A stretch of DNA of 64,000 bases from assembly GCA_035536915.1 (NCBI GenBank), contig DATLNE010000041.1, positions 1 to 64,000 of the forward strand, in the 5' to 3' direction. How positions within the stretch are numbered: the first letter of the stretch is position 1; every line of letters starts with the position of its first letter. The notes below the pieces were generated by a model, which saw only the letters and a list, made by a program, of their open reading frames with translations, made no database searches and was not told where the DNA came from. Below are positions 7,802 to 64,000 of this stretch, in pieces. The DNA is from Acidimicrobiales bacterium. Its GTDB lineage: Bacteria; Actinomycetota; Acidimicrobiia; Acidimicrobiales; JAHWLA01. A program made the position numbers and the translations under genes.

Positions 7802-7805
7802 CGCC

Positions 7806-8085: not shown

Positions 8086-8099
8086 GAAGTCCTCGAGCC

Positions 8100-8445
8100 C
8101 GGTGGGCGGCTCGTACGACCTCCATCACCTGATCGGCCGGGCCGACTTCGTCATGGAGGACGCCGCCGAACTGCTCGAACGATCGGTGCATGCGAGCTCG
8201 CCACCCTCTTGCGAGAAGAGGTGATCGGCCGCAACGTGCTCGACGGCCGGTGGACGTTCCAGGTGGTCGAGGAGTTCGACGCCGTCTACTTCCAAGCCGC
8301 CGCCGACGCCGAGCGCCGGGTGCGCGACGAACTCCTGGGCGGACGACGGCACGGGTTCGAGGCGGAGCTGAAACAGAAGCGCCGTACCCCGAGGCGGCCA
8401 GGCCACGAAAGCCTGCCGCCGTCCCGCCACCTCGACGACGGGTAG
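8100..8445 (+). pseudogene. partial, frameshifted copy of the gene A 3' end
   Basis: about 95% identical to 6360-6697, with a 1-nt indel (cggtgcggtgcatg versus cgatcggtgcatg) that breaks the frame. Confidence 0.55.
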
Positions 8446-8509: not shown

Positions 8510-8953
8510 TCATGCCGCTGGGGCTGTCCCCCCATGCGGAGTTGCGTGTCGCGGTTCAATGGCCTCACGGACGGTCACGGCGACAGCAAGGGTTCCCGGA
8601 AGGTAAGCCAAGCTGTCGGCACCTAGCGCCCCCATCACAGTGAAGGTTCCTGTCAGCGCCAAGGCAGCAACCAACAGGACACGCTCCCGACGCCGTAGAT
8701 AACGCTGCAGACAGAGGGCCATTGCTTCGGGCGGCAGCACCAGGAGCGCCGCCACCAGAGGACCATGCTTCGTCGTCAGCGACACTCGATGCGGCGCTGG
8801 CGTCACCTGTGAGCTTCGTCCGTTCTCGATCTTGGCTGTCGCTATGGCAAGGCGGGGCGACGAGTGCACTGACTGCGTAGGAAACGATGCGAGATAGGCC
8901 GATGCTCCCAGGGTCAAGAGAACGCTCGCGATGACGAATCGACGCAACTCCAC
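8510..8953 (-). CDS. hypothetical membrane protein (lower-GC cassette)
   Basis: 147 aa with several hydrophobic segments; local GC lower than the flanks; no recognisable family motif. Confidence 0.35.
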   Translation of the reverse strand: MELRRFVIASVLLTLGASAYLASFPTQSVHSSPRLAIATAKIENGRSSQVTPAPHRVSLTTKHGPLVAALLVLPPEAMALCLQRYLRRRERVLLVAALALTGTFTVMGALGADSLAYLPGTLAVAVTVREAIEPRHATPHGGTAPAA

Positions 8954-9045
8954 GCGCTCAGGGTAGTCCGTAGTCCGCCCGGCACACTTGGCTAGCTTCG
9001 GTGATCTATAACGTCCGCCTTGACGACGACCGAGAGAGCGTCGAC

Positions 9046-9085
9046 TGCTTCTCTGGTATGCGTATAGAGGTTCTCTGATATGCGT
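9046..9085. repeat. tandem direct repeat TATGCGTATAGAGG x2 in an AT-rich intergenic region
   Basis: ctggTATGCGTATAGAGGttctctgaTATGCGTATAGAGGcc read from the sequence. Confidence 0.5.
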
Positions 9086-9194
9086 ATAGAGGCCTTTGCT
9101 CGGGTTCGATTGGGAGGCGCCAAAGCACCCGCTAACAATGCCTACTGCTGGTACGGATAGAGCTTGCGTACCGCAATAGCTTCGTGGGGCAACG

Positions 9195-10202
9195 TCAGAG
9201 CTTGGGCGCAGGTCCGAGCCGGGGACGGGCGAAGCGGCCGATGCCTCGCGGCAGGTCGCCGGTGACGGTGGGCGCGGGGACCGACGGCGCCACCGGGGCG
9301 CGCCGAAATGGGCCGAGCAGTTGCGGCACGTGACCGGGCGCCTGGAGCAGCCCGAGGTACATGAGGATGAGCCCTACCAGCACCATGGCGGAGACCACCT
9401 GCGGCGTGCGCTCGGTCGAGGCCCGTCGGCCCCCGGGCGGCAGTGTCGACGCGGGCACTGCGGCCGACGGCCCGCTGGCCGGCCCGCTGGGTGCCACCGT
9501 CGCCTGGGTCGTCGGCAACGGCACCCCGTCCACCAGCAACGGCGGTGAGAACGTCTCGGTCGGCACCCCGAAGGCGGTGCCCGCATCGAAGCCCTCGAAG
9601 TCCTCGAACCCGGCGGGCGGCTCGTCGCCGTCGGACTGGCCCGGATACGTCGTCACGGTGATGGCGTCGGCGCCCGGCTTTTCGAACGCCACCTGGAACA
9701 CCTTGCCCGCCGTGGGTTGGAGCACGATGTTCAGCATTCCGTTGCGCACCAGTCCGCCTACGGGAAAGCGGACCTTGCCCGCGATCACCGAGCCGTAGGC
9801 CAACGCGCCGACCTCGCACGCGGGTGCCCGGTTCAGCGGCCCGCCCTCCTCGGGCGCCCACACCCGATTGGCGATGCACGCTTCCACGGCGATGTCGCCC
9901 TGCGCCTTGGGCTGGCCGGTCGTCTCGTCGGTGTCGATTGCCAGCACCAATTCGCCCACCGCTTGGTTGTCGTCGACCGGCAACCGCAGCGCGGACTTGC
10001 CGGCCGGCGCTGTGGGCTCGCCCGCCACGTAGAGCCCGCCCGGGTCGACGGGGCTGGGCGGCGAGGCGGGCAGGCCCAACGCTTCGCCCGACGCCGCCCA
10101 CCACCACGCCGTCGCCTCCGGCGCATCGGCACCCACCGGCAGCGGGCCGACGACCATGACGAACCCCGCCACCAACGCCACGACGCCCAGCAGCCGCCTC
10201 AC
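9195..10202 (-). CDS. secreted/membrane-anchored hypothetical protein ('gene B'), last gene of the Liv-like ABC operon
   Basis: GTG start overlaps the TGA of the upstream ATPase gene (GTGA at 10199-10202); N-terminal signal-like segment (RRLLGVVALVAGFVMVV) and a C-terminal TM (VVSAMVLVGLILMYLGLL). Confidence 0.5.
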   Translation of the reverse strand: MRRLLGVVALVAGFVMVVGPLPVGADAPEATAWWWAASGEALGLPASPPSPVDPGGLYVAGEPTAPAGKSALRLPVDDNQAVGELVLAIDTDETTGQPKAQGDIAVEACIANRVWAPEEGGPLNRAPACEVGALAYGSVIAGKVRFPVGGLVRNGMLNIVLQPTAGKVFQVAFEKPGADAITVTTYPGQSDGDEPPAGFEDFEGFDAGTAFGVPTETFSPPLLVDGVPLPTTQATVAPSGPASGPSAAVPASTLPPGGRRASTERTPQVVSAMVLVGLILMYLGLLQAPGHVPQLLGPFRRAPVAPSVPAPTVTGDLPRGIGRFARPRLGPAPKL

Positions 10203-52326: not shown

Positions 52327-54174
52327 CTACAGGAGCGAATCGTCGAACACGATTCCGCGGCCCCCGCAGTGCGGACAGGTCTGGGAGAACGATTCCACCA
52401 GGCCCTCCGACACCCGCTTGCGGGTCATCTCCACCAAGCCCAGCTCGGAGATGTCGAACACCTGGGTGCGGGTCTTGTCGCGCGACAGGGCGCCTCGGAA
52501 GGCCTTCATCACCTCGTCACGGTTCTTGCGGATCTCCATGTCGATGAAGTCGATGACGATGATGCCACCGATGTCGCGGAGCCGAAGCTGGCGGGCGACC
52601 TCTTCAGCCGCCTCCAGGTTGTTGCGGTAGACGGTCTCCTCCAGGTTGGAGGTGCCCACGTTCTTGCCGGTGTTGACATCGATCACGGTCAGCGCCTCGG
52701 TGCGCTCGATGATGAGCGACCCACCCGACGGCAGCCACACCTTGCGGTCGAGCGCCTTGTGCAGCTGCTCGTGCACGTGGAAGCGTTCGAAGATCGGCAG
52801 CGCCTCGGCCTCGGGGTCGTAGAACTCCACCCGGTCGGCCAACTCAGGGCTGATGGAGGCCACGTAGTCGCGCACGTCTTCGTACAGCGCCCGGTCGTCG
52901 ATGACCACGGCGCGGTAGTCGCGGTTGAACTCCTCGCGGATGACCCGCACCGCCATGTCGGGCTCCCGGTAGAGCAGCGACGGCGCCTTCGACCGCTTGG
53001 CCAGCCCGTCGATGTCGTTCCACTGCTTGAGCAGGCGGGCCACGTCGCGCCGCAGTTCGTCGGGCGTGGCGTCTTCCGCCGCGGTGCGCACGATGAGGCC
53101 GTGCCCCTCGGGCCGCACCTCGTCGAGGATGCGCCGCAGGCGCTTGCGCTCGTCGTCGGCCAGCCGCTTGGAGATGCCGTAGGTGTCGCTGTTGGGGATC
53201 AGGACGACGAACCGGCCGGGGAGCGACACCTCCTGGGTGAGGCGGGCGCCCTTGGTGCCGATGGGGTTCTTGGTGACCTGGCACAGGATGGTCTGGCCCG
53301 CCCGCAGCAGTTGCTCGATGCGGGCGCTGCCCTTGCTGCCGCCGCCTTCCACGTCGTCGCGGTCGTAGTGGACGTCGCCCCGGTACAACACGGCGTTCTT
53401 GGGCGTGCCGATGTCGACGAAGGCGGCCTCCATGCCGGGCAAGACGTTCTGCACCCGGCCGAGGTAGATGTTGCCGTCGATCTGGTTGACGTCGTCCTGC
53501 GGACGCGACACGTAGTGCTCGATGAGCGAACGCCCTTCCAGCACGGCGATCTGCGTGGCCCCCGGCCGCAGGTGCACGCACATCTGGTAGCGGCCCACCG
53601 GCCGCCCCTTGCGCTCCCGCCCCCGGCGCTTCTCCATCGTCTCCTCGTCGAGCTCCACGGGCTCGTCGAGCTCGGCAGCGGCGACAGCTTCCTGGCGCTT
53701 GGCACCGCTGCGACCGCGCCCACCACGGCGGCGGCGCTTCCGGCTGCTGCCGCCCTCCTTCGGCTCCGGCGCATCGGCGGCAGGGGTGTCCGGCTTGCCG
53801 GCCTCGCCGGCCACCACGGGCGGCGGCACCTTCGGCGTCAGGAAGGGCTTGGGCGGGAAGATGCCGGGCTCGCCGGGCATGATCGTGGCCTTGGCTGCGG
53901 CCTCAGGCGAGGGGCGTCCCTCGTTGGGGCGGTCGGGCAGGTCGTCGGGACGACGATCAACCTCGGCCTCGTCGCCCGCCGCGCCGTTGCCGTTGCGATC
54001 ACCACCGCCCCCGCCGCCACCTGAGCGGTTGCGGTTGCGCCCGCCTCGGGAGCCCCGGCGGCGGCGCTTGGCCGCTCCGGTGCCGCCGGACGGCGTCGCC
54101 CCGCCCTCAGCGGCTGCGGGCTGTTCCTGATGCTCCTGCGGTTCTCCGGCAGGGATCGGGGTTGCGTCGGACAT
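52327..54174 (-). CDS. rne: ribonuclease E/G family endoribonuclease with Arg/Gly-rich N-terminal extension
   Basis: S1 + RNase E/G catalytic core and C-terminal Zn-link (CPHCGGRG); conserved position upstream of rplU. Confidence 0.85.
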   Translation of the reverse strand: MSDATPIPAGEPQEHQEQPAAAEGGATPSGGTGAAKRRRRGSRGGRNRNRSGGGGGGGDRNGNGAAGDEAEVDRRPDDLPDRPNEGRPSPEAAAKATIMPGEPGIFPPKPFLTPKVPPPVVAGEAGKPDTPAADAPEPKEGGSSRKRRRRGGRGRSGAKRQEAVAAAELDEPVELDEETMEKRRGRERKGRPVGRYQMCVHLRPGATQIAVLEGRSLIEHYVSRPQDDVNQIDGNIYLGRVQNVLPGMEAAFVDIGTPKNAVLYRGDVHYDRDDVEGGGSKGSARIEQLLRAGQTILCQVTKNPIGTKGARLTQEVSLPGRFVVLIPNSDTYGISKRLADDERKRLRRILDEVRPEGHGLIVRTAAEDATPDELRRDVARLLKQWNDIDGLAKRSKAPSLLYREPDMAVRVIREEFNRDYRAVVIDDRALYEDVRDYVASISPELADRVEFYDPEAEALPIFERFHVHEQLHKALDRKVWLPSGGSLIIERTEALTVIDVNTGKNVGTSNLEETVYRNNLEAAEEVARQLRLRDIGGIIVIDFIDMEIRKNRDEVMKAFRGALSRDKTRTQVFDISELGLVEMTRKRVSEGLVESFSQTCPHCGGRGIVFDDSLL

Positions 54175-54189
54175 GGAGTACGTCCCTTC

Positions 54190-54912
54190 TCATGACGCAC
54201 GCTCCAGGCTTGGAGCGGGCGGCGCGTCCGTCGCGTCGAGCGGGGCCGGCAAAGGCTCCGATCGCGCGCCGTCGCGCAGAATCCATTGGGCAGTTCGTCG
54301 CACGCTCGCTGCCTCGATGCTGCCGTCGGGCGACAGTGCCCGCAGCAACTCCGTAGGCCGCAAGGCACGCGGCGCGGCGGCAAGCTCGCACTCGAGCACC
54401 ACCGGGTCGCCAGGGGCGACGGTGACGGACAGGAGGCCGGGTCGGATGTCGTCTTCCGACAGGCGGCCTTTGCGTTCCCGCGAGACGACGAGCGAATCGG
54501 CGGCCAGCGCGTCGGCGACAAGGCGTTCCATCTTGTCGGCCGGAGCGCCCACCACCTCGACCCGCCACGAACACGAGCTGACCTCGTGCTGGAGCGAGTC
54601 GGCCCGGTCGTCGATTGCCGCCGCGGCCGAAACGTCGACCCCGGCGGGGAGCACCGGCGTGAGCAGCGCCGGCAACGAGTCGACGTCGACGGTGGCGCCG
54701 GGCGCCAACTCGATGTCGAGGTACTCGGCCACCGACTCGGCGCCGGTGGGCAGGGCGAGCCCGAAGCTCACCTTGGGGCGAGGCGAGAACCCCTGGGTGT
54801 AGGCCAACGGCAACTGCACCCGCCGGAAGCCCCGCTCCCACATGCGGGCGAGGTCGCGGTGGCTCGTCCACCGGATCTTGCCCACCTTGGAGAAACGGAG
54901 CCGGACGCGCAC
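54190..54912 (-). CDS. DUF2344 (TIGR03936-like) radical-SAM-associated protein
   Basis: RLRFSKVGKIRWTSHRDLARMWERGFRRVQLPLAYTQGFSPRPK; GTG start inferred just after the radical SAM gene stop. Confidence 0.7.
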   Translation of the reverse strand: MRVRLRFSKVGKIRWTSHRDLARMWERGFRRVQLPLAYTQGFSPRPKVSFGLALPTGAESVAEYLDIELAPGATVDVDSLPALLTPVLPAGVDVSAAAAIDDRADSLQHEVSSCSWRVEVVGAPADKMERLVADALAADSLVVSRERKGRLSEDDIRPGLLSVTVAPGDPVVLECELAAAPRALRPTELLRALSPDGSIEAASVRRTAQWILRDGARSEPLPAPLDATDAPPAPSLERAS

Positions 54913-54914
54913 GG

Positions 54915-56855
54915 CTAGCTCGGCCGCCCGGCGAGGAGTTGCACGGGGACGAACCCGCCCGTGCTCAGGTCTTGCCCGGTGCCCTGGCTGCCGCCCGCGG
55001 GCGGCATTGGTGATGCCACGACGTGCTCGATGCCGTAGCCCGTGCAGGCGCCGCAGTCGTAACAGGGGGTCCACCGGCAGTCCTCGACGCCCGACGCAGC
55101 CAGCGCGTCCTGCCAGTCCTGCCAGAGGAAGTCCTTGTGGAGCCCGGCCGAGATGTGGTCCCAGGGCAGGACCTCGTCCTCGTCGCGGTGGCGGTACACG
55201 TACCAGTCGACCGACAGGCCGTGCTTGGCCATGGCGTCCTCCCACAGCGAGAGGTCGAAGAACTCCGACCACTCCTGGAAGATGCCGCCGTTGCGCCACA
55301 CCTCCTCGATCACCGCACCCAGCCGGCGGTCGCCGCGGCTGGCAATGCCCTCGGCCAACGTGGCCTTGGGGTCGTGCCACTTGAGCTGCACGCCTTGGAC
55401 CTTACGGGCTGTGTCCTTCAAGAGGTTGACCTTGCGGCGCAGCTCGTCGACCGTGTTCTGGCCGAACCACTGGAACGGCGTCTGCGCCTTGGGCACGAAG
55501 CCGCCGACCGACGCCGAGACGGTGACCCGGCCCGAGTGCTTGCGCCCGATGGCTGCACAGTTCTTGGCCAACTCGACGATGCCGAGGGTGTCCTCGTCGG
55601 CCTCGGTGGGCAGGCCGGTGAGGAAGTACAGCTTGATGCGCTGCCACCCCTGGCTGAAGGCCGACTCCGCCGCGCCGTACAGGTCCTCTTCGCGGATGAG
55701 CTTGTTGATGACCTGGCGCATGCGCCAGGTGCCGCCTTCGGGGGCGAACGTGAGGCCGGTGCGGCGCACCTTGGCGATCTCGGTGGCGATGCCCACCGTG
55801 TAGGCGTCGACCCGCAGGCTGGGCAGGCTCACGCCGACCGAGCCTTGGCACATGGGGTCGTTGATGATGCCGCCCACCACGTCTTCGATGCCGGAGTAGT
55901 CGGCCGTCGACAACGAGGTCAGCGCCACTTCGTCGTAGCCGGTGCGCTGCAGGCCGCCGGTGACCATCGAGCGCACCTGCTCGTTGGACCGCTCGCGCAC
56001 CGGGCGGGTGATCATGCCCGCCTGGCAGAAGCGGCAGCCCCGGGTGCAGCCCCGGAACACCTCGACGTTGAGGCGGTCGTGCACCACCTCGGTCATGGGC
56101 ACCAGTTGCTGCTTGGGGTACGGCCAGTCGTTGAGGTCGGAGATCGTGCGCTTCTCGACAACCGCGGGGACGTCTGCGTACTTCGGGGTGACCGAGCGCA
56201 GCGCCTCGCCGTCGTAGGCCACGTCGTACATCGAGGGCACGTAGACGCCCGGCACTGTGGCCAGCTCGCGCAGCACGCCTTCACGCGACGTGCGCCCGCT
56301 GTTCTTCCAGCCCCGCACGACGGCGGTGATGTCGGACACCACCTCCTCGCCGTCGCCGATGACGAAGAAGTCGACGAAGTCGGCCAGGGGCTCGGGATTG
56401 AAGGCGCAGTGGCCGCCTGCGGCGATCAACGGGTGTTCAGGCGAGCGGTCCGCCGTGCGAACCGGCACGCCCGCCAGGTCCACGCAGTTCAACAGGTTGG
56501 TGTAGACGAGCTCGGCCGACAGGTTGAAGGCGATGAGGTCGAAGTCGCCCGCCGCCCGGTGGGTGTCGACGCTGAAGAACGGCACGCCGCGGGCTCGCAT
56601 CAGCGCTTCCATGTCGACCCACGGCGCGTAGGACCGCTCGGCGACCGCATCGGGGCGCTCGTTGAGGATCTCGTAGAGGATCTGGAGCCCCTGGTTGGGC
56701 AGGCCGATCTCGTAAGCGTCGGGATAGACGAGGAGCCAGGCGACCTTGTGCGGGCTGTGCACGGGAGCCTGCGCGCCGTCTTCGCACCCGATGTAGCGAG
56801 CCGGCTTCTGCACCTTGGCCAGCAGGGGCTCGATCCGCGGCCAGAGCGACGTCAT
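54915..56855 (-). CDS. B12-binding-domain radical SAM protein (TIGR03960-like)
   Basis: 646 aa; CxxxCxxC (CTRGCRFCQAGM); conserved pairing with DUF2344 upstream of rne. Confidence 0.85.
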   Translation of the reverse strand: MTSLWPRIEPLLAKVQKPARYIGCEDGAQAPVHSPHKVAWLLVYPDAYEIGLPNQGLQILYEILNERPDAVAERSYAPWVDMEALMRARGVPFFSVDTHRAAGDFDLIAFNLSAELVYTNLLNCVDLAGVPVRTADRSPEHPLIAAGGHCAFNPEPLADFVDFFVIGDGEEVVSDITAVVRGWKNSGRTSREGVLRELATVPGVYVPSMYDVAYDGEALRSVTPKYADVPAVVEKRTISDLNDWPYPKQQLVPMTEVVHDRLNVEVFRGCTRGCRFCQAGMITRPVRERSNEQVRSMVTGGLQRTGYDEVALTSLSTADYSGIEDVVGGIINDPMCQGSVGVSLPSLRVDAYTVGIATEIAKVRRTGLTFAPEGGTWRMRQVINKLIREEDLYGAAESAFSQGWQRIKLYFLTGLPTEADEDTLGIVELAKNCAAIGRKHSGRVTVSASVGGFVPKAQTPFQWFGQNTVDELRRKVNLLKDTARKVQGVQLKWHDPKATLAEGIASRGDRRLGAVIEEVWRNGGIFQEWSEFFDLSLWEDAMAKHGLSVDWYVYRHRDEDEVLPWDHISAGLHKDFLWQDWQDALAASGVEDCRWTPCYDCGACTGYGIEHVVASPMPPAGGSQGTGQDLSTGGFVPVQLLAGRPS

Positions 56856-57122
56856 GTTCCGCGCCAGTGTAGACGGCTGCCCGCCTGCGCCCCCCTTCGG
56901 CCCGGACTATTGACACCTGGCCATGACAGTCACCGTTCGGACAAATGGCTCTCATGAGTGGCTGCTCCCCCGACGATGCAGCTTTTGCTCGTCTGAGCAC
57001 CGGGGGGAAGCAACAACCCCTCCGTACCGAATCGGCAAACCCGAGGCGACTCGGGGACGCAAAGCCACGGACCTGCACGACGCAGGCAGCCGGGTTACCG
57101 AAAACAGGAGGAACAACCGAAT

Positions 57123-57806
57123 ATGCAGTCAAACCGAATCAAGGTGCTCGCCACCTTGGGTGTACTGAGCGCGGCCGCGGCCGGGCTCGGTGGGATCGGG
57201 ACCTTCGCCGGCTTCACGGCCCAGGTGAAGAACGCCGACAATCTGTTCTCCAACGGCACGCTCGTGCTGTCGTCGACCAAGACCGGTGGCAGCGCCTGCC
57301 TGTCGACGGGCGGTGGGACCACCGACACCAACTCCAACACCTCGTGCGAGGCCCTCTTCAACGCCACCGTCCAGAAGCCCGGCGATTCCGCCACCCAGAC
57401 GGTGACCGTCAAGAACGAGGGCAGCTTGGCCGCCACCGCCTTCAAGGTGTTCTCGGCGGCCTGCACCAACGCCGACAACGCCGAGAGCTACCACGGCACC
57501 GGCAATCCCTGCTCCAAGGTGCAGCTTTACGTCCAGCAGTACTCGGACTCTGGCTTCACAACGCCGTCGGCATGCGTCTACGGCGGCACAACGACAGCGA
57601 ACACCTGCGACTTCTCCGACGCCGCCAAGACGTTGGCCGCCTTCCAGACGAGCTACAGCTCGTCGTCGAACGGCCTCGCCATCGGCAGCGGGCTCGACGC
57701 AGGCGGGTCGACCTACTTCAAGGTCGGCGTGAAGCTGCCGGCTGATGCCGACAACACCTTCCAGGGCCGCAAGGCGACCACGGACCTCACGTGGTACCTG
57801 GCCTGA
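57123..57806 (+). CDS. secreted protein with SipW-cognate (TasA/camelysin-type) signal peptide
   Basis: N-terminus MQSNRIKVLATLGVLSAAAAGLGGIGTFAGFTAQ...NLFSNGTLVL matches the GTFAxFTD/NxFxxGTLxL pattern; Thr/Ser/Gly-rich mature part. Confidence 0.6.
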   Translation: MQSNRIKVLATLGVLSAAAAGLGGIGTFAGFTAQVKNADNLFSNGTLVLSSTKTGGSACLSTGGGTTDTNSNTSCEALFNATVQKPGDSATQTVTVKNEGSLAATAFKVFSAACTNADNAESYHGTGNPCSKVQLYVQQYSDSGFTTPSACVYGGTTTANTCDFSDAAKTLAAFQTSYSSSSNGLAIGSGLDAGGSTYFKVGVKLPADADNTFQGRKATTDLTWYLA

Positions 57807-57811
57807 GCAGC

Positions 57812-58375
57812 ATGACGGCGTCGGGGCCTTCGGGCCCCGGCGCCGTGCTGTCCTTCGGACCGCCGCCCGTCGGTCGGCTGCGCGTCGTCGTGCGTGCGGT
57901 GGTCGTTGCCTTCGCCGCGCTGCTCGTCGTTTTCGTCGGGCTGGGGCTCGTCGTCGGGCCCCACGTGTTCGGCTACCGGGTGCTGTTCGTGCGCACCGCC
58001 AGCATGGAGCCGACCCTGCCGGTGGGCTCGCTGCTCGTCGTGCGCCAGGTCGATGCCGCCGATGTCGAGTCGGGCGACATCCTCACCTTTTCCCACCCTG
58101 ACAGCCCCGAGCGCCTCGTGACCCACCGTGTGGTGCGGCGCGACGGCGAAGGCTTCGTCACCCAAGGCGACGCCAGCACGGCCGCCGACCCATGGCGGAT
58201 CCCGGCGACGGGCTCGGGCTGGCGGTATGCGTTCTCGCTTCCCGGCGTCGGCTTCCTCCTCGGCTACCTGCGCTCGGGCATGGTCTCGACCGTGGCTTTG
58301 GCGTTGACGATCGTCGCCTGCTCCGCCCAGTTCCTCCGGCTCATCTGGCGCCCGGCGCCCGCCGTCAGCTGCTGA
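57812..58375 (+). CDS. sipW: signal peptidase I, SipW type (S26B)
   Basis: single TM followed by the catalytic Ser motif (RTASMEPTLPVGSLLVV); 187 aa. Confidence 0.8.
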   Translation: MTASGPSGPGAVLSFGPPPVGRLRVVVRAVVVAFAALLVVFVGLGLVVGPHVFGYRVLFVRTASMEPTLPVGSLLVVRQVDAADVESGDILTFSHPDSPERLVTHRVVRRDGEGFVTQGDASTAADPWRIPATGSGWRYAFSLPGVGFLLGYLRSGMVSTVALALTIVACSAQFLRLIWRPAPAVSC

Positions 58376-59157
58376 TGAAACGCCTCGTCGCCGTCGCCTT
58401 GGCCTTTGCCTTCGCGATCGCCGTGTCGTCGGCGACAGGCACCGACGCGACCTTCAGCGGGCGCACCCGCTCGACCCAGGCCTTTTCACTGCTGGCCGTG
58501 GGGACGCCGTCGCAGTTGACCGCCCAGCCGCTCGGCAACGACGTGTCGTTGTCGTGGAGTGCCGGGCAGCACGCCACCGCCTACCAGGTGCGCGCCGGCA
58601 ACACGTGCGTCGGCATGACGACGGTGGCGGAGCCGACGGCCACCTCGCACAGCGACACGCCCGACGTGGCCGCTGGTGAGTCACGCTGCTACGGCGTGCT
58701 CTCCACCCTCGACCAGTGGACGAGCGTGACCGGCAACCCCGCCGTCATCGTGCGCGTGGGTTTCGTGGCCACGTCGGTGGCGATCGTCGAAGGCGCGTGC
58801 GGGACCAATGGCTTCCTCGACTGCGGCGACCAGTTCGTGATCGAGCTCAACCAGCCCGCCAATGTCGTGACCCCTGATGCCGTGTGCGCCGAGTCGGGCG
58901 CCATCGTGCTCGGCTGCGAAGACAGCGTGGGCACGTTGTCGGGCGGCACCCTCGACGCCGATGCCCGCTACGCCGCCACCTCGTCGTGGTCGAACGGCAA
59001 CCGCATCCTCACCATCACCGTGGGAGCGCGCACGCAAGGCACCGTCGACCCCACCATGGCGGGCCCGTGGACGCTGACCCCGACCGGCCTCACCTCGGCC
59101 ACCGGCGACGTAGCGATCTGCGCCACCGCAGGGGACTGCCGGCCGACGACTAGCTGA
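58375..59157 (+). CDS. second secreted protein with probable SipW-cognate signal peptide
   Basis: MKRLVAVALAFAFAIAVSSATGTDATFSGRTRS; start overlaps the sipW stop (TGATG); Cys-rich mature domain. Confidence 0.5.
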   Translation: MKRLVAVALAFAFAIAVSSATGTDATFSGRTRSTQAFSLLAVGTPSQLTAQPLGNDVSLSWSAGQHATAYQVRAGNTCVGMTTVAEPTATSHSDTPDVAAGESRCYGVLSTLDQWTSVTGNPAVIVRVGFVATSVAIVEGACGTNGFLDCGDQFVIELNQPANVVTPDAVCAESGAIVLGCEDSVGTLSGGTLDADARYAATSSWSNGNRILTITVGARTQGTVDPTMAGPWTLTPTGLTSATGDVAICATAGDCRPTTS

Positions 59158-60304
59158 AGCGGCGCATGTGCACGTTGAGCACGAGGCCCACGGCCGCAAA
59201 ACCCGCCAAGGTTGCGGAGCCGCCATACGACATGAAGGGCAAGGGGATGCCGGTGATCGGCATGATGCCCATGGTCATGCCGACGTTCTCGAAGATCTGG
59301 AACACGAACATGGCCAGCACGCCGACGCACACCAGCGTGCCGCTCAGGTCGCGGGCCAAGGCGGCCGCTCGCCACGTGCGCCAGATGACGACGGCGAACA
59401 GGGCCAACAGCAGTCCTGACCCGGCCAGGCCGAGCTCCTCCCCCACCACGGTGAAGATGAAGTCGGTGTGCTGCTCGGGCACGTACGACAGGTTCGTCTG
59501 CGAGCCGTTGAACAACCCGGTGCCGGTCAGCCCGCCGTGGGCAATGGCGATCTTCGACTGGTTGAGGTTGTAGGCCGAACGCTGCGTGTCCTCGGTGGGG
59601 TCGAGGAACGCCGTCAGCCGCTCGCGCTGGTAGTCCTGCAGGATGCCGAGTTGGAGCACGACCACCACGACGGCCACGCCCATCAGGGCCAGCGCCCCGA
59701 GGTGCTGGGGCCGGGCGCCCGCCACCAGCAACATGCCGAGCAGGATGGCCAGGAACACCAGGGCGGTGCCGAGGTCGGGCTGCAGCATGATCAGCCCGAC
59801 GGGCACGGCGGTGAGCCCCACCACCACGGCAAGCCGCTGGGCGTCGAGGTCGCCGCGGTGCAGTGATGCGTACGCGGCCAGGCAGACGATCAGGGCGATC
59901 TTGGCCCACTCCGAGGGCTGGAACTGGAACGACGCCAGTTGGAACCACGCCTGCGAGCCCTTGCTGCTGGAGCCCAAAGGCGTGAGCACAGCGAACAGCA
60001 ACGCCACCGTGGCCGGGTAGATGAGCGCGGCGCGGTCGCGGAACACGCGGTAGTCGACCAGCGTCATGCCGATCATCACGGCGATCCCGAGCACCACGAA
60101 GACCAGTTGGCGATTGAGGAAGTACTCGGGGTCGACTCGTCCCTCGGCCTCCAGCCGCCGGCGGGTGGCGCTGTAGACCATCAACGTCCCCAGGGCCGAT
60201 ATGAGCACGACGGCGACGACGAGCACGAAGTCGACGTGCGCCCACGGGCCCGTGCTCGTGCGGCCCGTGCCCCGGGTGCGCGTGCGACTGGCTACAGCGG
60301 CCAT
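59150..60304 (-). CDS. rodA: rod shape-determining SEDS protein RodA
   Basis: FtsW/RodA motifs (PSEWAKIALIV, MSYGGSA); ATGA overlap with the PBP2 stop. Confidence 0.85.
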   Translation of the reverse strand: MAAVASRTRTRGTGRTSTGPWAHVDFVLVVAVVLISALGTLMVYSATRRRLEAEGRVDPEYFLNRQLVFVVLGIAVMIGMTLVDYRVFRDRAALIYPATVALLFAVLTPLGSSSKGSQAWFQLASFQFQPSEWAKIALIVCLAAYASLHRGDLDAQRLAVVVGLTAVPVGLIMLQPDLGTALVFLAILLGMLLVAGARPQHLGALALMGVAVVVVVLQLGILQDYQRERLTAFLDPTEDTQRSAYNLNQSKIAIAHGGLTGTGLFNGSQTNLSYVPEQHTDFIFTVVGEELGLAGSGLLLALFAVVIWRTWRAAALARDLSGTLVCVGVLAMFVFQIFENVGMTMGIMPITGIPLPFMSYGGSATLAGFAAVGLVLNVHMRRFS

Positions 60305-62202
60305 CAGTCGACCCCTCCGGCCAACTGCACGTCGCCCACCGGCTTGCCCGCCAGCCCGGCGAAGATACGCCGCGCCACCGGCGCCGCCACGGAACCGCCG
60401 AAGCCCGACTCCTCCATGATCACGGAGATGGCGTACTGCGGGGCGTTGGCGGGGCCGAAGCCCGCGAAGATGGCCGTGTCCTGCTTGCCGGTCACCTGGG
60501 CGGTGCCGGTCTTGCCCGCCACCGGGAAGCCGTCGAAGCCTGCGAAGGCGCCATGGGCGGTGCCCTTGGGATCGGTGATGGCACCGCGAAGGCCCGCCAC
60601 GATGGGGGTGCGCACGTTGGCCGGCAGGTCGACCTTGCGGGTGGTGACCGACGGGACTTCGCGCACGACCGTGCCGTCCTGGCGCAGGATGCGCGCCGCC
60701 ACCTTGGGTTGGTGCACCGTGCCGCCGTTGGCGAACGCCGCATAGGAGACGCCGAGTTGCAGGGGCGTCACCACGGTCTCGCCCTGGCCGATCGACAGGT
60801 TGACGTTGTCGCCCGCGAACCAGCGGCCCTCGGGGAAGGCGTCGGGCCGCGCCTCGTGCAACCGCTTGCGGCCCTCGGGATCGGAGATGCGGCCGCGGGC
60901 CTCCGACGCCAGCGGGATGCCCGTCTTCTCGCCCAGGCCGAACTCCTTGGCCGTGTCCTGAATGACCGTCTCGCCGTACTGGCTGCGCTGGTTCCAGAAC
61001 GACGCACCCAACGTGTAGAAGTAGACGTCGGACGACACGGCCAGCGCCCGGGTCACGTTGACCCGGCCCCACGGGTAGCTGCCCGCGTTGCGGAAGGTGC
61101 GGTTGCCGACCCGCAGTTCGCCGTGGTCGTCGAAGGTGGTGCGCTCGTTGACAAGGCCCTTGCGCATGGCGGCCGTCGCCGTCACCAGCTTGAAGGTGGA
61201 GCCCGGCGCGTACTGGCCCTGCACCACCCGGTTGTTGAGGGGGAAGTAGCTGGCCGGGTCCTGCATCGTGCGGAACACGTCGGGGCTGATGCCATTGACG
61301 AACGAGGCCGGGTCGTACGTCGGGTACGACGCCATGGCCAGCACCGAACCGTCGTTGGGGTCGAGCACCACGACGGAGCCCGCGGGCGCCACGAAGTTCT
61401 TCTTTGTCTCCCGGTCGGCGTCGCGCCGGGCCGCTTCGAGGCCGCGCACGAGAGACTCCTCGGCCAGGCGCTGCACGTCGAGGTCGATCGTCAGTTGTAC
61501 GTCGTGGCCTTGCACGGGGGCACGGCGGGCGAGCGTCTGCAATACCCGGTTGGACGAGTCGACTTGGAGCTTGGTGATGCCCTGCTCGCCGCGCAGGTCT
61601 TCCTCGTAGGACTGCTCGACGCCCGACTTCCCGATCGACTCGCCCAGCCGATAGCCCTTCTCGTCGCGGCTCTTGAGCTCGGTGTCGTTGATCTCACCGA
61701 CGTAGCCGAGCAGGTGGGCGGCCAGGGTGCCGTTGGGGTAGGAACGGCGGGCCAGCTTGGCCTCGTCGACGCCGGGGAAGTCGGCGCGGTGCTCCTTGAG
61801 GTAGACGATCTTCTCCTCGGGCACGTCCTCGGCCACCGGCACCGGCTTGTAGTGGCTGTAGCGAGGATCGGCGATGCGCTTGACCAGCTCGGCCTCGCTG
61901 ATGCCGAGCAGGGCGGCCAGGCGCGGGATCACCTCTTGTTCGTGGCCCTTGAGCTCGACCCGGTTGACGGTGATGGCCTCCGACACCCGGTTGTCGACAA
62001 GCACCCGGCCTTGCCGGTCGAGGATGCGGCCGCGCGGCGCTTCCTCGAAGACGAGCTTGGCCTCGTTCTGCTCGGCCTGCAGCTGGAACGTCTCGCTGTC
62101 GAGCACCTGGAGGTACCAGAGGCGGGCGAAGAGGGCGGCGAAGAGCGAGATGACGACGACGCCGAGCACGGCGAGTCGGAGGCGGCTGTTCTCTGTGGTC
62201 AT
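60304..62202 (-). CDS. mrdA: penicillin-binding protein 2 (class B PBP)
   Basis: N-terminal TM, dimerisation and transpeptidase domains (STFK, SSD/N, KTGT); 4-nt overlap with mreD. Confidence 0.85.
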   Translation of the reverse strand: MTTENSRLRLAVLGVVVISLFAALFARLWYLQVLDSETFQLQAEQNEAKLVFEEAPRGRILDRQGRVLVDNRVSEAITVNRVELKGHEQEVIPRLAALLGISEAELVKRIADPRYSHYKPVPVAEDVPEEKIVYLKEHRADFPGVDEAKLARRSYPNGTLAAHLLGYVGEINDTELKSRDEKGYRLGESIGKSGVEQSYEEDLRGEQGITKLQVDSSNRVLQTLARRAPVQGHDVQLTIDLDVQRLAEESLVRGLEAARRDADRETKKNFVAPAGSVVVLDPNDGSVLAMASYPTYDPASFVNGISPDVFRTMQDPASYFPLNNRVVQGQYAPGSTFKLVTATAAMRKGLVNERTTFDDHGELRVGNRTFRNAGSYPWGRVNVTRALAVSSDVYFYTLGASFWNQRSQYGETVIQDTAKEFGLGEKTGIPLASEARGRISDPEGRKRLHEARPDAFPEGRWFAGDNVNLSIGQGETVVTPLQLGVSYAAFANGGTVHQPKVAARILRQDGTVVREVPSVTTRKVDLPANVRTPIVAGLRGAITDPKGTAHGAFAGFDGFPVAGKTGTAQVTGKQDTAIFAGFGPANAPQYAISVIMEESGFGGSVAAPVARRIFAGLAGKPVGDVQLAGGVD

Positions 62203-62702
62203 CGGGCGTAGGAACGGTCGGGTTCGAGTCCCGCCATGGCCCACGAGGCCAGGCGCACGGCGGGCAGGGCGAGCACGGCGTTGCCGACGGCGACGACGGC
62301 AACGATGGCCGGCACGTCAGCGTCGAGCAGCTGGGTCTGGCCCAGCACGGCGCCGAGCACGACGAACAAGACGATGCCCGCAGCGCTGGCCACGAACGCC
62401 GTCACCGGGGTGATCCACCACGACGAGCGGATGAGCGTGGCCTGCAGGGCGCCCACGGCGAAGGCGACGAGGGCGAAGGTGAGGGCCGACAGGCCGAGCG
62501 GGGTCTGCACGAACAAGTCGGCCAACAGGCCTACGCCGAAGCCGACAACCGCGCCCGACTCGCTGCCCGCCACGATGGCCACCGCGATGGCGAACAGCAG
62601 GAGGGCGTCGGGATGGACGCCGCGGATGCGCACGTCCTGGAAGGCCGAGTACTGCAGCGTGAGGACGAGCAGTACGGCAATCGGCAGGCGGGCCCGGTTC
62701 AT
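62199..62702 (-). CDS. mreD: rod shape-determining protein MreD
   Basis: 167 aa polytopic; position between mreC and PBP2. Confidence 0.7.
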   Translation of the reverse strand: MNRARLPIAVLLVLTLQYSAFQDVRIRGVHPDALLLFAIAVAIVAGSESGAVVGFGVGLLADLFVQTPLGLSALTFALVAFAVGALQATLIRSSWWITPVTAFVASAAGIVLFVVLGAVLGQTQLLDADVPAIVAVVAVGNAVLALPAVRLASWAMAGLEPDRSYAR

Positions 62703-63532
62703 GCGGCCCGGGGGCTCCACTGGAGGACCTTGACGAAGGTGAGGCGGCTGAGGTCGACGACCGGGTCGACGGTGACCTCCTGCTGCAGTTCCCCGGGGCG
62801 AGCCGTGGCCGAGCGCACCTTGCCCACCGGGATCCCCGGCGGGAACACGCTCTGCTGCAAGCCGCTGGTGACCACCACTTCGTCGGGCGGCACCACCGTG
62901 GCGGGGTCGATCAGGTCGACGCCGAGGGGCGAGCGTTCGCCTTGGCCGTTGGCCACGCCGATGTCGCCCGACGACACCAGCCGCACGCCGACGCTCGACT
63001 CCGCGTCGGTGATCAGCAGCACCGTCGAACGGGTGCGGCTGGCCTCGACCACTCGGCCCACCAGCCCGGCGCCCGACACCACCGGCATGCCTTGGACCAC
63101 GCCGTCACCAGTGCCGCGGTCGATCTCCAGCGTCAGCTCGAAGTTGTTGGGCGAGAGGGTCACCACGCGGGCGGCCACGGTGGGAATGTCGCCGATGTAG
63201 GCGAGCTCCTGCTGGTCGAGCAGCGCCTTCAGCTCGCGCTGGGCGTCCTGGGCCTTCAGCTGTTCGCCGTCGCGACTGGCCAGCTGTTCGCGCAGGCGGG
63301 CGTTTTCCGCCTCCAGGTCGCCGTAGTGGACGATGCCCTGCACCACGTCGCCCACCGGTTCGAACACGGCGTCGGCCGCCGAGGTGATCGGCGCGAAGGC
63401 GTCGCGGGCGGCACCGCGCACGCTGTCGACCACCCGGGCCCCGCGCTCGTCGAGGGTCAGCAGGGTGACAGCGGTGACGACGAGCAGCAGGAGGGTGAAC
63501 CGAGGACGAGCAGAGCGTCGATAGACGGCCAC
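62699..63532 (-). CDS. mreC: rod shape-determining protein MreC
   Basis: N-terminal TM, coiled coil, MreC beta domains; 277 aa. Confidence 0.85.
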   Translation of the reverse strand: MAVYRRSARPRFTLLLLVVTAVTLLTLDERGARVVDSVRGAARDAFAPITSAADAVFEPVGDVVQGIVHYGDLEAENARLREQLASRDGEQLKAQDAQRELKALLDQQELAYIGDIPTVAARVVTLSPNNFELTLEIDRGTGDGVVQGMPVVSGAGLVGRVVEASRTRSTVLLITDAESSVGVRLVSSGDIGVANGQGERSPLGVDLIDPATVVPPDEVVVTSGLQQSVFPPGIPVGKVRSATARPGELQQEVTVDPVVDLSRLTFVKVLQWSPRAA

Positions 63533-63545
63533 GCAGGCCGGCTCC

Positions 63546-64000
63546 TTAGTGGCCGCTCGAGGAGATGAGGACCTGCTTCAGGGCCTCGAACTCCTCGAGG
63601 CACTGGCCGCTCCCGATGGCGACCGAGTGCAAGGGGTTCTTGGCGATGACGATCGGCATGCCGGTCTCGGCCGAGAGGCGGGCGTCGAGGCCGTGGAGCA
63701 GCGCGCCGCCCCCGGTGAGGACGATGCCCTGTTCCATGATGTCGGCGGCGAGCTCGGGCGGCGTCTTGTCGAGGGTCACCTTCACAGCATCGACGATGGC
63801 CGACAACGGCTCTTCGATGGCCTCACGGATTTCCTCGGTGGTGGTCACGATCGTCTTGGGCAAGCCGGTGATGAGGTCGCGGCCTCGGATCTCGGCGTGC
63901 AGCTCCTCTTCCAGGGGGCACGCGGAACCGAGGGCGATCTTGATCTCCTCGGCCGTGCGCTCGCCGAGGGCGAGGCTGTACTCCTTCTTGATGAACTGGA
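63546..64000 (-). CDS. mreB: rod shape-determining protein MreB (3' part; 5' end lies beyond the window)
   Basis: actin-like C-terminus (GIVLTGGGALLHGLDARLSAETGMPI); the reading frame continues to the window edge. Confidence 0.9.
   Translation of the reverse strand, partial: QFIKKEYSLALGERTAEEIKIALGSACPLEEELHAEIRGRDLITGLPKTIVTTTEEIREAIEEPLSAIVDAVKVTLDKTPPELAADIMEQGIVLTGGGALLHGLDARLSAETGMPIVIAKNPLHSVAIGSGQCLEEFEALKQVLISSSGH

What the first reader, a model, noticed from the sequence alone, without database searches (positions are those of the whole stretch)
57123..59157. SipW signal peptidase operon with two SipW-cognate (TasA-like) substrates in a high-GC actinobacterium
The first gene encodes a protein whose N-terminus (GIGTFAGFTAQ...NLFSNGTLVL) matches the SipW-cognate signal-peptide class of Bacillus TasA/CalY. 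It is followed by a SipW-type (S26B) signal peptidase with the SMEPT motif and a second exported protein whose signal region (ATGTDATFSGRT) resembles the same class and whose ATG overlaps the sipW stop. This is a tapA-sipW-tasA-like organisation, and it suggests a dedicated secretion and processing pathway for fibre or biofilm-matrix-like proteins. The cluster sits beside the mre/rodA cell-shape cluster.
Basis: partly seen in the sequence, partly recalled or inferred. Interest (0 to 1): 0.65.

Follow-up and report, generated by a model that had tools for sequence, protein, structure and literature searches.

The report
Riboswitch-controlled TasA-like fibre operon
An uncultured soil actinobacterium (Acidimicrobiales) carries a three-gene operon for a TasA-like biofilm-fibre protein, its own SipW-type signal peptidase and an unannotated fibronectin-like partner protein, preceded by a c-di-GMP-class riboswitch; it is a recognisable relative of the Bacillus biofilm-matrix operon with a different accessory protein and different regulation.

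Summary
The three ORFs are real and lie where stated. g1 (57123-57806) belongs to the TasA/Peptidase_M73 family: it just passes Pfam, aligns to B. subtilis TasA by hhalign (prob 95%) and has the TasA fibre 8aur as best fold match. g2 (57812-58375) is an archaeal/ER-type (SipW-type) signal peptidase: it passes TIGR02228, fails the LepB-type model, has the Ser/His/Asp motifs and has no lysine. g3 (58375-59157) is not TasA-like. It is a signal peptide followed by an FN3 domain and a second beta-sandwich, from an unannotated family. Only its N-terminal cleavage and strand region resembles that of g1, as in TapA. Neither window protein reaches the TIGR04088 cut-off, although g1 orthologues at 65% identity do. 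The order [TasA-like]n-S26-g3 recurs in MAGs of Actinomycetota, Chloroflexota and Dormibacterota. The mre/rodA neighbourhood is specific to one clade. Best reading: a cyclic-dinucleotide-controlled donor-strand fibre system in which g3 acts as a TapA-like initiator or anchor. That role for g3 is inferred. Novelty is moderate: a new variant of a known kind.

The parts
57002..57023 (+). Predicted 5' expression-platform elements. A G-run (57002-57008) can pair with CCCCUCC (57017-57023). CCUCC (57019-57023) is also complementary to the Shine-Dalgarno GGAGG.
   Evidence: In short-context MFE and centroid folds, CCUCC pairs with GGAGG and encloses the aptamer (window; L042). With more upstream sequence, the G-run:CCCCUCC hairpin wins instead. 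L003 has CUCCC and GGGAG, a possible compensatory change, but its MFE differs. This is prediction only.
57025..57103 (+). GEMM-I class (c-di-GMP-I clan CL00126) riboswitch aptamer
   Evidence: Rfam RF03167 c-di-GMP-I-GGC scores 62.8 bits (gathering 59), E 9e-14, over the full model 1-80. Aptamers of the same clan lie at the same position upstream of g1 in L042 (63.2 bits), L003/L004 (RF01051, 63 bits) and L041 (48.3 bits, cut by the contig end).
57106..57111 (+). Shine-Dalgarno AGGAGG of g1. It lies 3 nt after the aptamer and 11 nt before the ATG.
   Evidence: Read directly from the sequence.
57123..57806 (+). g1: TasA-like (Peptidase_M73 family) secreted protein and predicted fibre subunit. 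Cleavage is predicted at GTFA29|G30F31. Six cysteines are invariant.
   Evidence: - PF12389 scores 23.1 against a gathering score of 22.5.
- hhalign against B. subtilis TasA gives prob 95.3%, E 2e-8. It aligns GTFA|GF with GTWA|AF and also aligns KPGD..N.GSL.
- The best Foldseek match is the TasA fibre 8aur_A (E 1.9e-5), followed by 5of2 and 5of1.
- It has more than 400 homologues, several of them named 'TasA family protein'.
- It has a single His, so no HExxH motif.
57812..58375 (+). g2: SipW-type (archaeal/ER-type, S26B) signal peptidase I with N- and C-terminal hydrophobic anchors. An alternative GTG start at 57791 overlaps g1 by 16 nt.
   Evidence: - TIGR02228 scores 68.3 against a cut-off of 51.85. 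TIGR02227 (bacterial type) scores 32.3 against a cut-off of 47. NF046067 (Bacillus SipW equivalog) scores 48.8 against a cut-off of 190.
- The only PDB sequence match is human SEC11C, with SMEP, HRV and GD aligned.
- It has no lysine.
58375..59157 (+). g3: secreted protein of an unannotated family. It has a signal peptide, then a TasA-like cleavage and strand segment (predicted cleavage GTDA25|T26F27), an FN3 domain (~45-127) and a second beta-sandwich (~130-250). It has 8 Cys. It is the proposed TapA-like initiator or anchor.
   Evidence: - No Pfam or NCBIfam family is matched.
- In hhalign against the g1 family, only the N-terminal 30 columns align (E 2e-5, prob 77%).
- It lies downstream of the S26 gene in most related loci.
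- The profile finds 118 representatives at E<=1e-30.

Best explanation
The region is one operon, made of a riboswitch, g1, g2 and g3, for a cell-surface or matrix fibre of the TasA type.

**Shown**
- g1 is a TasA-family protein.
- g2 is a dedicated ER/archaeal-type (SipW-type) signal peptidase.
- g3 is an FN3 plus beta-sandwich protein. Its family shares with g1 only the segment around and just after the predicted signal-peptide cleavage site.
- The genes are translationally coupled: a 5-nt gap or 16-nt overlap between g1 and g2, and TGATG between g2 and g3.
- The gene order is conserved across three phyla.
- A GEMM-I riboswitch aptamer abuts the g1 ribosome-binding site.

**Inferred**
- Both precursors are exported by Sec. 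g2 cleaves them at ...GT[F/D]A | [G/T]F..., which exposes an N-terminal strand beginning x-Phe, as in TasA (A28-F29).
- g1 polymerises by donor-strand exchange. Each subunit inserts its N-terminal strand into the next one. The TasA interface residues F29 and P62 correspond to F31, which is invariant, and P86, which is nearly invariant.
- g3 has complete Ig-like domains and a donor-like N-terminus. It donates its strand to the first g1 subunit and therefore sits at one end of the fibre as nucleator, anchor or adhesin, which is the role shown for TapA in Bacillus.
- Translation of the operon responds to a cyclic dinucleotide, most probably c-di-GMP, through an interplay of anti-SD and SD. The direction (ON or OFF) is not resolved.
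For: **g1**
- Family and fold.
- The N-terminal residues 15-41 are disordered in the monomer model, as expected of a donor strand.
- F31, P86, Q214 and six Cys are conserved.

**g2**
-.

**g3**
- Fold.
- The N-terminal motif is shared with g1.
- Orthologue motifs include L018 AAFTAQTQNPGNAYA and L007 GTFALLTARTSNPNSVFA, against the g1 consensus ATFTAQTxNPxNxFA.
- An HMM of g1 residues 22-50, searched against 1606 six-frame ORFs, hits at E<1 only g1 paralogues, g3-family genes and one other post-S26 gene.

**Cassette conservation**
-.
- In some loci the third gene is a second M73 paralogue instead of g3.
- g1 is much more conserved than g3 (91% against 69% identity on the same contig). This fits a structural subunit paired with an exposed accessory protein.

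**Riboswitch**
-.

**Precedent**
- TapA donates its N-terminus to TasA, has a complete Ig fold and therefore acts only as initiator (PMC10151520).
- TasA fibres assemble by donor-strand exchange (PMC9674648).
- PF12389 homologues are known in Actinobacteriota and Chloroflexota (PMC9245690).
Against: - No experiment exists for any member of this clade, and all related loci are MAGs.
- g1 passes PF12389 only marginally, and the fold match is moderate (TM about 0.45).
- Neither window protein reaches the TIGR04088 cut-off.
- The g3 N-terminal motif is degenerate in the window's own clade: 6 of 21 identities and no hit with the g1 N-terminal HMM.
- A test for cognate-specific similarity between the g3 and g1 N-termini across 17 loci was not significant (499 of 5000 shuffles reached the observed value).
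- The shared motif could reflect peptidase recognition alone.
- No complex model could be computed.
- The riboswitch is confined to the nearest relatives. Its sub-variant (RF03167 against RF01051) and hence its ligand are not settled. The fold predictions disagree on the state of the SD.
Confidence: 0.6

Rival explanations
1. g3 is an independent secreted FN3 adhesin or cell-wall protein. It is co-transcribed with the TasA-like gene and uses the same peptidase, and the shared N-terminal motif is only the recognition determinant of the SipW-type peptidase. g3 is not incorporated into g1 fibres and does not nucleate them.
For: - In the window clade, the motif beyond the cleavage site is poorly conserved.
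- No cognate-specific co-variation was found.
- g3 has complete FN3-type domains typical of adhesins.
- Chloroflexia orthologues carry a long Thr/Ser/Pro-rich tail like cell-wall-spanning surface proteins.
Against: - In most orthologues the similarity extends about 20 residues past the predicted cleavage site, through the NPxNxFA part that aligns with the TasA donor strand. That is more than a peptidase needs.
- The position directly after the peptidase is strictly conserved across three phyla.
- TapA provides a precedent (PMC10151520).
Confidence: 0.25
2. g1 does not form fibres. It acts as a soluble or surface-bound monomer or oligomer, for example a sheath or S-layer-like coat, an antimicrobial protein or a spore-associated protein, as was first proposed for TasA.
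For: - The fold match is moderate.
- g1 has a 21-residue disulfide-bonded insertion and three putative disulfides that Bacillus TasA lacks.
- There are no experimental data.
Against: - The positions that form the TasA protomer interface are the most conserved ones: F31, the KPGD motif and the YQG-like QG (PMC10151520).
- All characterised members of the superfamily polymerise by strand donation (PMC9674648, PMC9245690, PMC12518558).
Confidence: 0.1
3. g1 is a camelysin-type metalloprotease, as the Pfam name Peptidase_M73 suggests, and the operon encodes a secreted protease with its maturation peptidase.
For: The Pfam family name.
Against: - g1 has a single histidine and no HExxH or other zinc-binding motif.
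- The matched structures are the non-enzymatic TasA jelly-roll.
Confidence: 0.03

Closest known systems
Bacillus subtilis tapA-sipW-tasA operon (TasA fibres, TapA initiator, SipW peptidase)
   Same: - It has a TasA-family subunit with the same cleavage-site and donor-strand signature (GTWA|AF against GTFA|GF).
- It has a dedicated ER-type signal peptidase encoded between the two substrates.
- Its accessory protein is an Ig-like protein that shares only the N-terminal strand with the subunit.
- The genes overlap or are tightly coupled.
   Different: - The gene order is subunit-peptidase-accessory rather than accessory-peptidase-subunit.
- g3 is not homologous to TapA: it matches no family and has FN3 plus a beta-sandwich instead of a V-set Ig domain.
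- g1 is not a TasA equivalog (NF046066 scores 21.6 against a cut-off of 450). It carries a disulfide-rich insertion and six invariant Cys.
- Regulation appears to be by a riboswitch rather than by SinR/Spo0A.
- The host is a high-GC actinobacterium.
Bacillus cereus sipW-tasA-calY and Clostridium perfringens sipW-bsaA (BsaA family, TIGR04090)
   Same: A SipW-type peptidase is clustered with one or more TasA-superfamily matrix proteins. Related loci here also carry 2-4 paralogues, or a second M73 paralogue as the third gene.
   Different: The window cassette has one subunit plus a non-TasA FN3 protein. There is no evidence for BsaA-type isopeptide bonds. TasA itself gives only a weak TIGR04090 signal, and g1 gives none.
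Archaeal bundling pili AbpA/AbpB and AbpX (TasA superfamily)
   Same: These are donor-strand fibres of TasA-like subunits. The adjacent gene encodes a larger secreted beta-rich protein that has been proposed as initiator or adhesin (PMC9245690). AbpX genes often lie next to a signal peptidase I gene (PMC12518558).
   Different: AbpA operons lack a dedicated peptidase. The sequence relationship to g1 is remote and was not tested here.
TIGR04088 / TIGR04089 'SipW-dependent-type' and 'alternate-type' signal peptide proteins of NCBI annotation
   Same: g1 orthologues in Chloroflexia pass TIGR04088 and are named accordingly. The g1 N-terminus gives a faint TIGR04089 signal (14.7 bits).
   Different: The window's g1 and g3 fall below both cut-offs, and NCBI annotates them as hypothetical proteins.
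c-di-GMP-I (GEMM-I) riboswitches, e.g. Vc2
   Same: The aptamer matches over its full length above the gathering score, with the conserved GCAAACC...GACGCAAAGCC...UUACCG core.
   Different: - The best-scoring model is the GGC sub-variant, whose ligand I could not verify.
- The aptamer lies in front of a TasA-like operon in Acidimicrobiales.
- None of 121 other metagenomic sites with the same 19-nt core is followed by such genes.
- I found no report of a riboswitch in front of a sipW/tasA operon in the library searched.

Membership tests
TasA / Peptidase_M73 (PF12389) | Score at or above the Pfam gathering threshold | tested here: met
   23.1 bits against 22.5, which is marginal. Many orthologues carry a precomputed PF12389 hit.
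TasA / Peptidase_M73 (PF12389) | TasA jelly-roll/Ig-like fold | tested here: met
   The best Foldseek match is 8aur_A, the TasA fibre (E 1.9e-5, prob 1.00). 5of2 and 5of1 also match. TM is about 0.4-0.46.
TasA / Peptidase_M73 (PF12389) | N-terminal cleavage site followed by a donor strand beginning x-Phe, and the KPGD 'proline box' residue | tested here: met
   hhalign to B. subtilis TasA gives prob 95.3%. It aligns GTFA|GF with GTWA|AF and KPGD..N.GSL with KPGD..NNGSL. F31 is invariant and P86 nearly invariant.
TasA / Peptidase_M73 (PF12389) | Polymerisation by donor-strand exchange | not testable with these tools
   No multimer prediction or experiment was available.
Bacillus TasA equivalog (NF046066) | Score at or above the curated cut-off of 450 bits | tested here: not met
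   21.6 bits. The control, B. subtilis TasA, scores 513.8.
SipW-dependent-type signal peptide (TIGR04088) | Score at or above the cut-off of 19 bits | tested here: not met
   No hit was reported for g1 or g3, either full-length or as N-terminal fragments, at E<=10. The model is in the library: TasA scores 38 bits, and the g1 orthologues P0027 and P0030 score 26.2 and P0014 scores 21.2.
SipW-type / archaeal-ER-type signal peptidase I (S26B; TIGR02228) | Score at or above the curated cut-off, and better than the bacterial LepB-type model | tested here: met
   TIGR02228 scores 68.3 against 51.85. TIGR02227 scores 32.3 against 47.
SipW-type / archaeal-ER-type signal peptidase I (S26B; TIGR02228) | Ser-His(-Asp) catalytic residues rather than a Ser-Lys dyad | tested here: met
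   SMEP, HRV and GD...D align with human SEC11C. The protein contains no lysine at all.
Bacillus SipW equivalog (NF046067) | Score at or above the cut-off of 190 bits | tested here: not met
   48.8 bits.
TapA (TasA anchoring/assembly protein) | Sequence homology to TapA/YqxM | tested here: not met
TapA (TasA anchoring/assembly protein) | N-terminus homologous to the subunit's donor strand, on a complete Ig-like body, encoded next to the peptidase | tested here: met
   This holds at family level. hhalign of the g3 family against the g1 family aligns only the N-terminal 30 columns (E 2e-5; motifs). The body is FN3 plus a beta-sandwich. The gene follows the peptidase. The signal is weak in the window copy.
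c-di-GMP-I riboswitch clan (CL00126: RF01051 / RF03167) | Covariance-model score at or above the gathering threshold, on the sense strand, 5' of a gene | tested here: met
   RF03167 scores 62.8 against 59, over the full model, on the + strand, 20 nt before the g1 ATG. Orthologous sites are found.
c-di-GMP-I riboswitch clan (CL00126: RF01051 / RF03167) | Binding of c-di-GMP | not testable with these tools
   This needs in-line probing or ITC. The ligand of the GGC sub-variant could not be looked up, because the supplement is not held.
Fibronectin type III domain | FN3 fold | tested here: met

The most novel reading that the evidence does not exclude
The g3 family is a previously unrecognised accessory subunit that is widespread in Actinomycetota, Chloroflexota and Dormibacterota. 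It is not homologous to TapA but is functionally convergent with it: it nucleates or anchors TasA-like donor-strand fibres through a mimic of the subunit's N-terminal strand. In this Acidimicrobiales lineage the whole fibre operon is placed directly under a cyclic-di-GMP riboswitch. That would be the first direct link between a second messenger and TasA-type matrix fibres, and a handle on surface structures of uncultured soil actinobacteria.
Probability: 0.4. Interest if true: 0.55.

Novelty: new variant of a known kind. Interest (0 to 1): 0.45.

Why it matters
TasA-type fibres are the best-understood protein scaffold of Gram-positive biofilms and are now known from archaea as well. Outside Bacillus and Clostridium they are known only as database hits. 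This locus shows a compact three-gene version that recurs in abundant but uncultured soil lineages (Acidimicrobiia, Gaiellales, Chloroflexia, Dormibacterota). Its accessory protein has no annotation, yet at family level it reproduces the 'borrowed N-terminal strand' design of TapA. If that is confirmed, initiator-by-strand-mimicry would be a general, independently evolved principle of chaperone-free donor-strand fibres. The riboswitch gives a testable regulatory input for matrix production in organisms that cannot yet be grown. The finding is not a new kind of system: the peptidase-subunit pairing is already captured by NCBI and Pfam models and was noted in the literature (PMC9245690).

Tried and rejected
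- **TIGR04088 on g1 and g3**. There was no hit. A positive control showed that the model is present, so this is a true sub-threshold result and not a gap in the library.
- **Cognate co-variation test.** I asked whether each g3 N-terminus is more similar to the g1 N-terminus of its own locus than to those of other loci. Across 17 loci the observed score was 34.8 against 32.8 +/- 1.5 for shuffles, and 499 of 5000 shuffles reached the observed value. This is not significant.
- **Metagenome scan.** I searched for the riboswitch core GACGCAAAGCCACGGNCCTG to collect more riboswitch-g1 loci. It returned 120 stretches (121 sites), none followed by g1, S26 or g3. The core is generic to GEMM-I, so no extra sequences for covariation were gained.
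- **Ligand of the c-di-GMP-I-GGC sub-variant.** Weinberg et al. 2017 does not discuss it in the main text, and its supplement is not held. The other papers only list the name.
- **Direction of riboswitch control.** Folds with different amounts of upstream context give different states for the SD, so I make no ON or OFF call.
- **Functional link to the mre/rodA cell-shape cluster.** Rejected. The synteny is limited to the window, L003, L041 and L042. The other cassettes lie in unrelated contexts.
- **Camelysin protease reading.** Rejected. There is no metal-binding motif.
- **Sortase anchoring of g3.** The C-terminal ...CLPTxxGxF of orthologues is not an LPXTG sorting signal, because no hydrophobic tail follows it.
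- **Tat export.** Neither signal peptide has a twin-arginine motif.
- **Sigma-70 promoter and terminator scan.** No promoter-like site was found, and the only two terminator-like sites are on the minus strand inside g1, no more than shuffles give.
Full report
**1. What is in the sequence**

Between two minus-strand housekeeping blocks lie three plus-strand ORFs. Upstream are RNase E/G, DUF2344 and a radical-SAM gene. Downstream are RodA, PBP2, MreD, MreC and MreB. All flanking genes were confirmed by Pfam.

- g1 is 57123-57806 (227 aa).
- g2 runs from GTG 57791, or more probably ATG 57812, to 58375.
- g3 is 58375-59157 (260 aa).

g1 has a canonical AGGAGG 11 nt upstream of its start. The g2 ATG lies 5 nt after the g1 stop. 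The g3 ATG shares a base with the g2 stop (TGATG). The g3 stop overlaps the RodA stop by 8 nt in convergent orientation.

Proteins 100% identical to g1 and g3 are on record from a 71.5-kb contig of an Acidimicrobiales MAG, where they are annotated 'hypothetical protein'.

**2. g1 is a TasA-family protein**

- It passes Pfam PF12389 (Peptidase_M73, the TasA/camelysin family) narrowly, at 23.1 bits against 22.5.
- A profile of 46 homologues aligns with B. subtilis TasA at 95% probability (E 2e-8). The alignment covers the signal peptide, the cleavage site, the following strand and the KPGD...N.GSL motif. GTFA29|G30-F31 is in register with TasA GTWA27|A28-F29.
It is validated by its 513.8-bit match to the TasA equivalog model.
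- The only PDB sequences that the profile touches, weakly, are TasA entries.
- The AlphaFold model has pLDDT 75. Residues 15-41 are disordered.
- The best structural match of that model is the TasA fibre 8aur, followed by the TasA crystal structures.
- F31 is invariant, and P86 and the C-terminal QG are conserved. These correspond to F29, P62 and Q232 of the TasA protomer interface described in PMC10151520.
- g1 differs from Bacillus TasA in a 21-residue insertion and in six invariant cysteines.
- It has one histidine and no metal-binding motif, so the 'camelysin protease' name does not apply.
- It is far from the Bacillus TasA equivalog model.

**3. g2 is a SipW-type peptidase**

- It passes the archaeal/ER-type model TIGR02228 (68.3 against 51.85) and fails the bacterial LepB-type model (32.3 against 47).
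- Its only PDB sequence match is human SEC11C, with SMEP, HRV and GD...D aligned.
- It contains no lysine, so a Ser-Lys dyad is impossible.
- It is not an equivalog of Bacillus SipW (48.8 against 190).

**4. g3 is not TasA-like, but it borrows the TasA-like N-terminus**

- g3 matches no Pfam or NCBIfam family.
- Its model (pLDDT 82) shows a signal peptide, a disordered stretch (residues 12-38), an FN3 domain and a second beta-sandwich.
- A profile-profile comparison of the g3 family with the g1 family aligns only about 30 N-terminal columns (E 2e-5, prob 77%). It places GTDA25|T26-F27 on GTFA29|G30-F31.
- In orthologues the resemblance is much stronger. L018 has AAFTAQTQNPGNAYA, L007 has GTFALLTARTSNPNSVFA and L005 has ASFNAKGVNPNNVFA, against the g1 consensus ATFTAQTxNPxNxFA.
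- An HMM of g1 residues 22-50 was searched against 1606 six-frame ORFs of all loci. At E<1 it hits only g1 paralogues, g3-family genes and one other gene that follows the peptidase. No unrelated ORF is hit.
- The window's own g3 is not among those hits. It shares only 6 of 21 aligned positions with g1. In this clade the motif has therefore decayed to G-T-x-A-x-F-S...F-S.
- Neither g1 nor g3 reaches the TIGR04088 cut-off, although TasA and the Chloroflexia orthologues of g1 do. I read this as divergence within the class and not as exclusion from it.

**5. Conservation of the cassette**

- The order g1 - S26 peptidase - g3-like is found in Acidimicrobiales (L003, L041, L042), Gaiellaceae (L005), other Actinomycetota (L001, L018, L022-L024), Chloroflexia (L007, L012, L013, L017) and Dormibacterota (L029).
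- In the Chloroflexia loci L007 and L008 the gene caller missed g3.
- Several loci have two to four g1 paralogues in front of the peptidase.
- In L021 and L025 the third gene is a second M73 paralogue.
- The g3 profile finds 1850 representative proteins at E<=0.001 and 118 at E<=1e-30. Part of these are FN3-repeat giants, but many are full-length proteins of about 300 aa.
- All 32 GTDB loci are MAGs.
- g1 is far more conserved than g2 and g3 (91%, 69% and 69% identity on L041).
- Synteny with the radical-SAM gene and rodA is confined to the closest relatives. The position beside the cell-shape genes therefore looks incidental: a plus-strand insertion into a conserved minus-strand array.

**6.

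- Rfam places a GEMM-I clan aptamer at 57025-57103 on the plus strand. It is RF03167 c-di-GMP-I-GGC, at 62.8 bits against a gathering score of 59, E 9e-14, over the full model.
- It ends 3 nt before the g1 Shine-Dalgarno.
- Aptamers of the same clan occupy the same position in L042, L003/L004 and L041.
- None was found in the 26 more distant loci scanned.
- CCUCC at 57019-57023, immediately 5' of the aptamer, is complementary to the SD. It pairs with the SD in short-context folds.
- With more upstream sequence, a G-run (57002-57008) competes for that CCUCC. L003 has CUCCC and GGGAG but folds differently.
- This looks like a translational expression platform. I cannot say whether the ligand turns it on or off, and I could not verify the ligand of the GGC sub-variant.
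- I found no paper describing a riboswitch in front of a sipW/tasA operon.
- None of 121 other metagenomic GEMM-I sites with the same core precedes such genes.

**7. Mechanism**

Shown:
- The families and folds of the three proteins.
- The shared N-terminal motif at family level.
- The operon architecture and its conservation.
- The presence of the aptamer.

Inferred, from the Bacillus system (PMC9674648, PMC10151520):
- Export is by Sec; there is no twin-arginine motif.
- g2 cleaves after GT[F/D]A.
- g1 polymerises by inserting its new N-terminal strand into the next subunit.
- g3 has complete Ig-like domains, so it can donate a strand but cannot accept one. It would therefore act as initiator, anchor or tip adhesin.
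- Extracellular disulfides stabilise both proteins.
- Translation responds to a cyclic dinucleotide.

The main rival is that g3 merely shares the peptidase and is an independent adhesin. The non-significant cognate co-variation test and the degenerate motif in the window clade keep this rival alive.

**8. Comparison and novelty**

In logic, this is a TasA/SipW matrix-fibre operon. Membership of the TasA family and of the SipW-type S26B peptidases is met. Membership of the Bacillus equivalogs, of TIGR04088 and of TapA is not met.

TasA homologues in Actinobacteriota and Chloroflexota have been noted before (PMC9245690), and NCBI names some orthologues 'TasA family protein'. The core finding is therefore not new.

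The new elements are these:
- A conserved, unannotated FN3-type third gene with a TasA-like N-terminal strand, which is a TapA analogue but not a homologue.
- The inverted gene order.
- The cyclic-dinucleotide riboswitch in this lineage.

I rate it a new variant of a known kind, with moderate interest.

Noticed in passing
window 57025-57103 (+): A GEMM-I / c-di-GMP-I clan riboswitch aptamer (RF03167, 62.8 bits) lies directly upstream of the g1 ribosome-binding site. It is conserved in L042, L003/L004 and L041.
   Followed up: yes
window 57002-57023 and 57106-57111: A G-run, CCCCUCC and the SD GGAGG can form mutually exclusive helices around the aptamer. This may be a translational expression platform placed 5' of the aptamer. 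The direction of control is unresolved.
   Followed up: partly
window 59150-59157: The 3' ends of g3 (+) and rodA (-) overlap by 8 nt, with no terminator-like structure between the convergent genes. The same overlap is seen in L041 (2093-2100).
   Followed up: no
window 52327-63863: The three plus-strand genes interrupt a minus-strand array that is otherwise continuous: mreB-mreC-mreD-PBP2-rodA followed by radical SAM-DUF2344-RNase E/G. This suggests an insertion. GC content does not differ from the flanks.
   Followed up: partly
L007 6415-8178 (+), L008 6415-8178 (+): In the Chloroflexia contigs the public gene calls show small minus-strand ORFs here. The plus-strand ORF is a strong g3-family match (E about 1e-94), so the g3 gene was probably missed by the gene caller.
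   Followed up: partly
L017 7300-7924 (+) (also L007, L012, L013): Chloroflexia g3 orthologues carry a C-terminal tail of about 250 residues, rich in Thr, Ser, Pro and Ala and of low complexity. The actinobacterial ones lack it. It may be a cell-wall-spanning or glycosylated stalk.
   Followed up: no
L017 9657-9740 (-): A c-di-GMP-II riboswitch (71.1 bits) lies in front of a 231-aa secreted protein (8936-9631, -), about 1 kb beyond the end of g3 (7924) in a Chloroflexia MAG.
   Followed up: no
L002 5195-5796 (+): The S26 peptidase is split into two ORFs (107 and 76 aa by the public gene calls) between the TasA-like and g3-like genes. This is either a frameshift or pseudogene, or an assembly error.
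   Followed up: no
L021 6134-6862, L025 2227-2850, L026 6170-6892, L034 5934-6755 (+): In these cassettes the gene after the peptidase belongs to a different family from g3. In L021 and L025 it is a second Peptidase_M73 paralogue (49-54 bits). All four share the N-terminal motif ...AGTGA[VL]ATWTATTSA.NT..AGTVL, but L026 and L034 were not scanned against Pfam. This resembles the B. cereus tasA/calY arrangement.
   Followed up: partly
L029-L031, L033, L036-L038: These loci have two to four tandem g1-family paralogues in front of the single peptidase. L026 also has a second ORF (6879-8429) with an S26 hit, much longer than the other S26 genes.
   Followed up: no
L044-L163 (120 metagenome stretches; 80 listed): 121 GEMM-I sites share the exact core GACGCAAAGCCACGGNCCTG. 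None precedes a TasA-like, S26 or g3 gene. What they do regulate was not examined.
   Followed up: no
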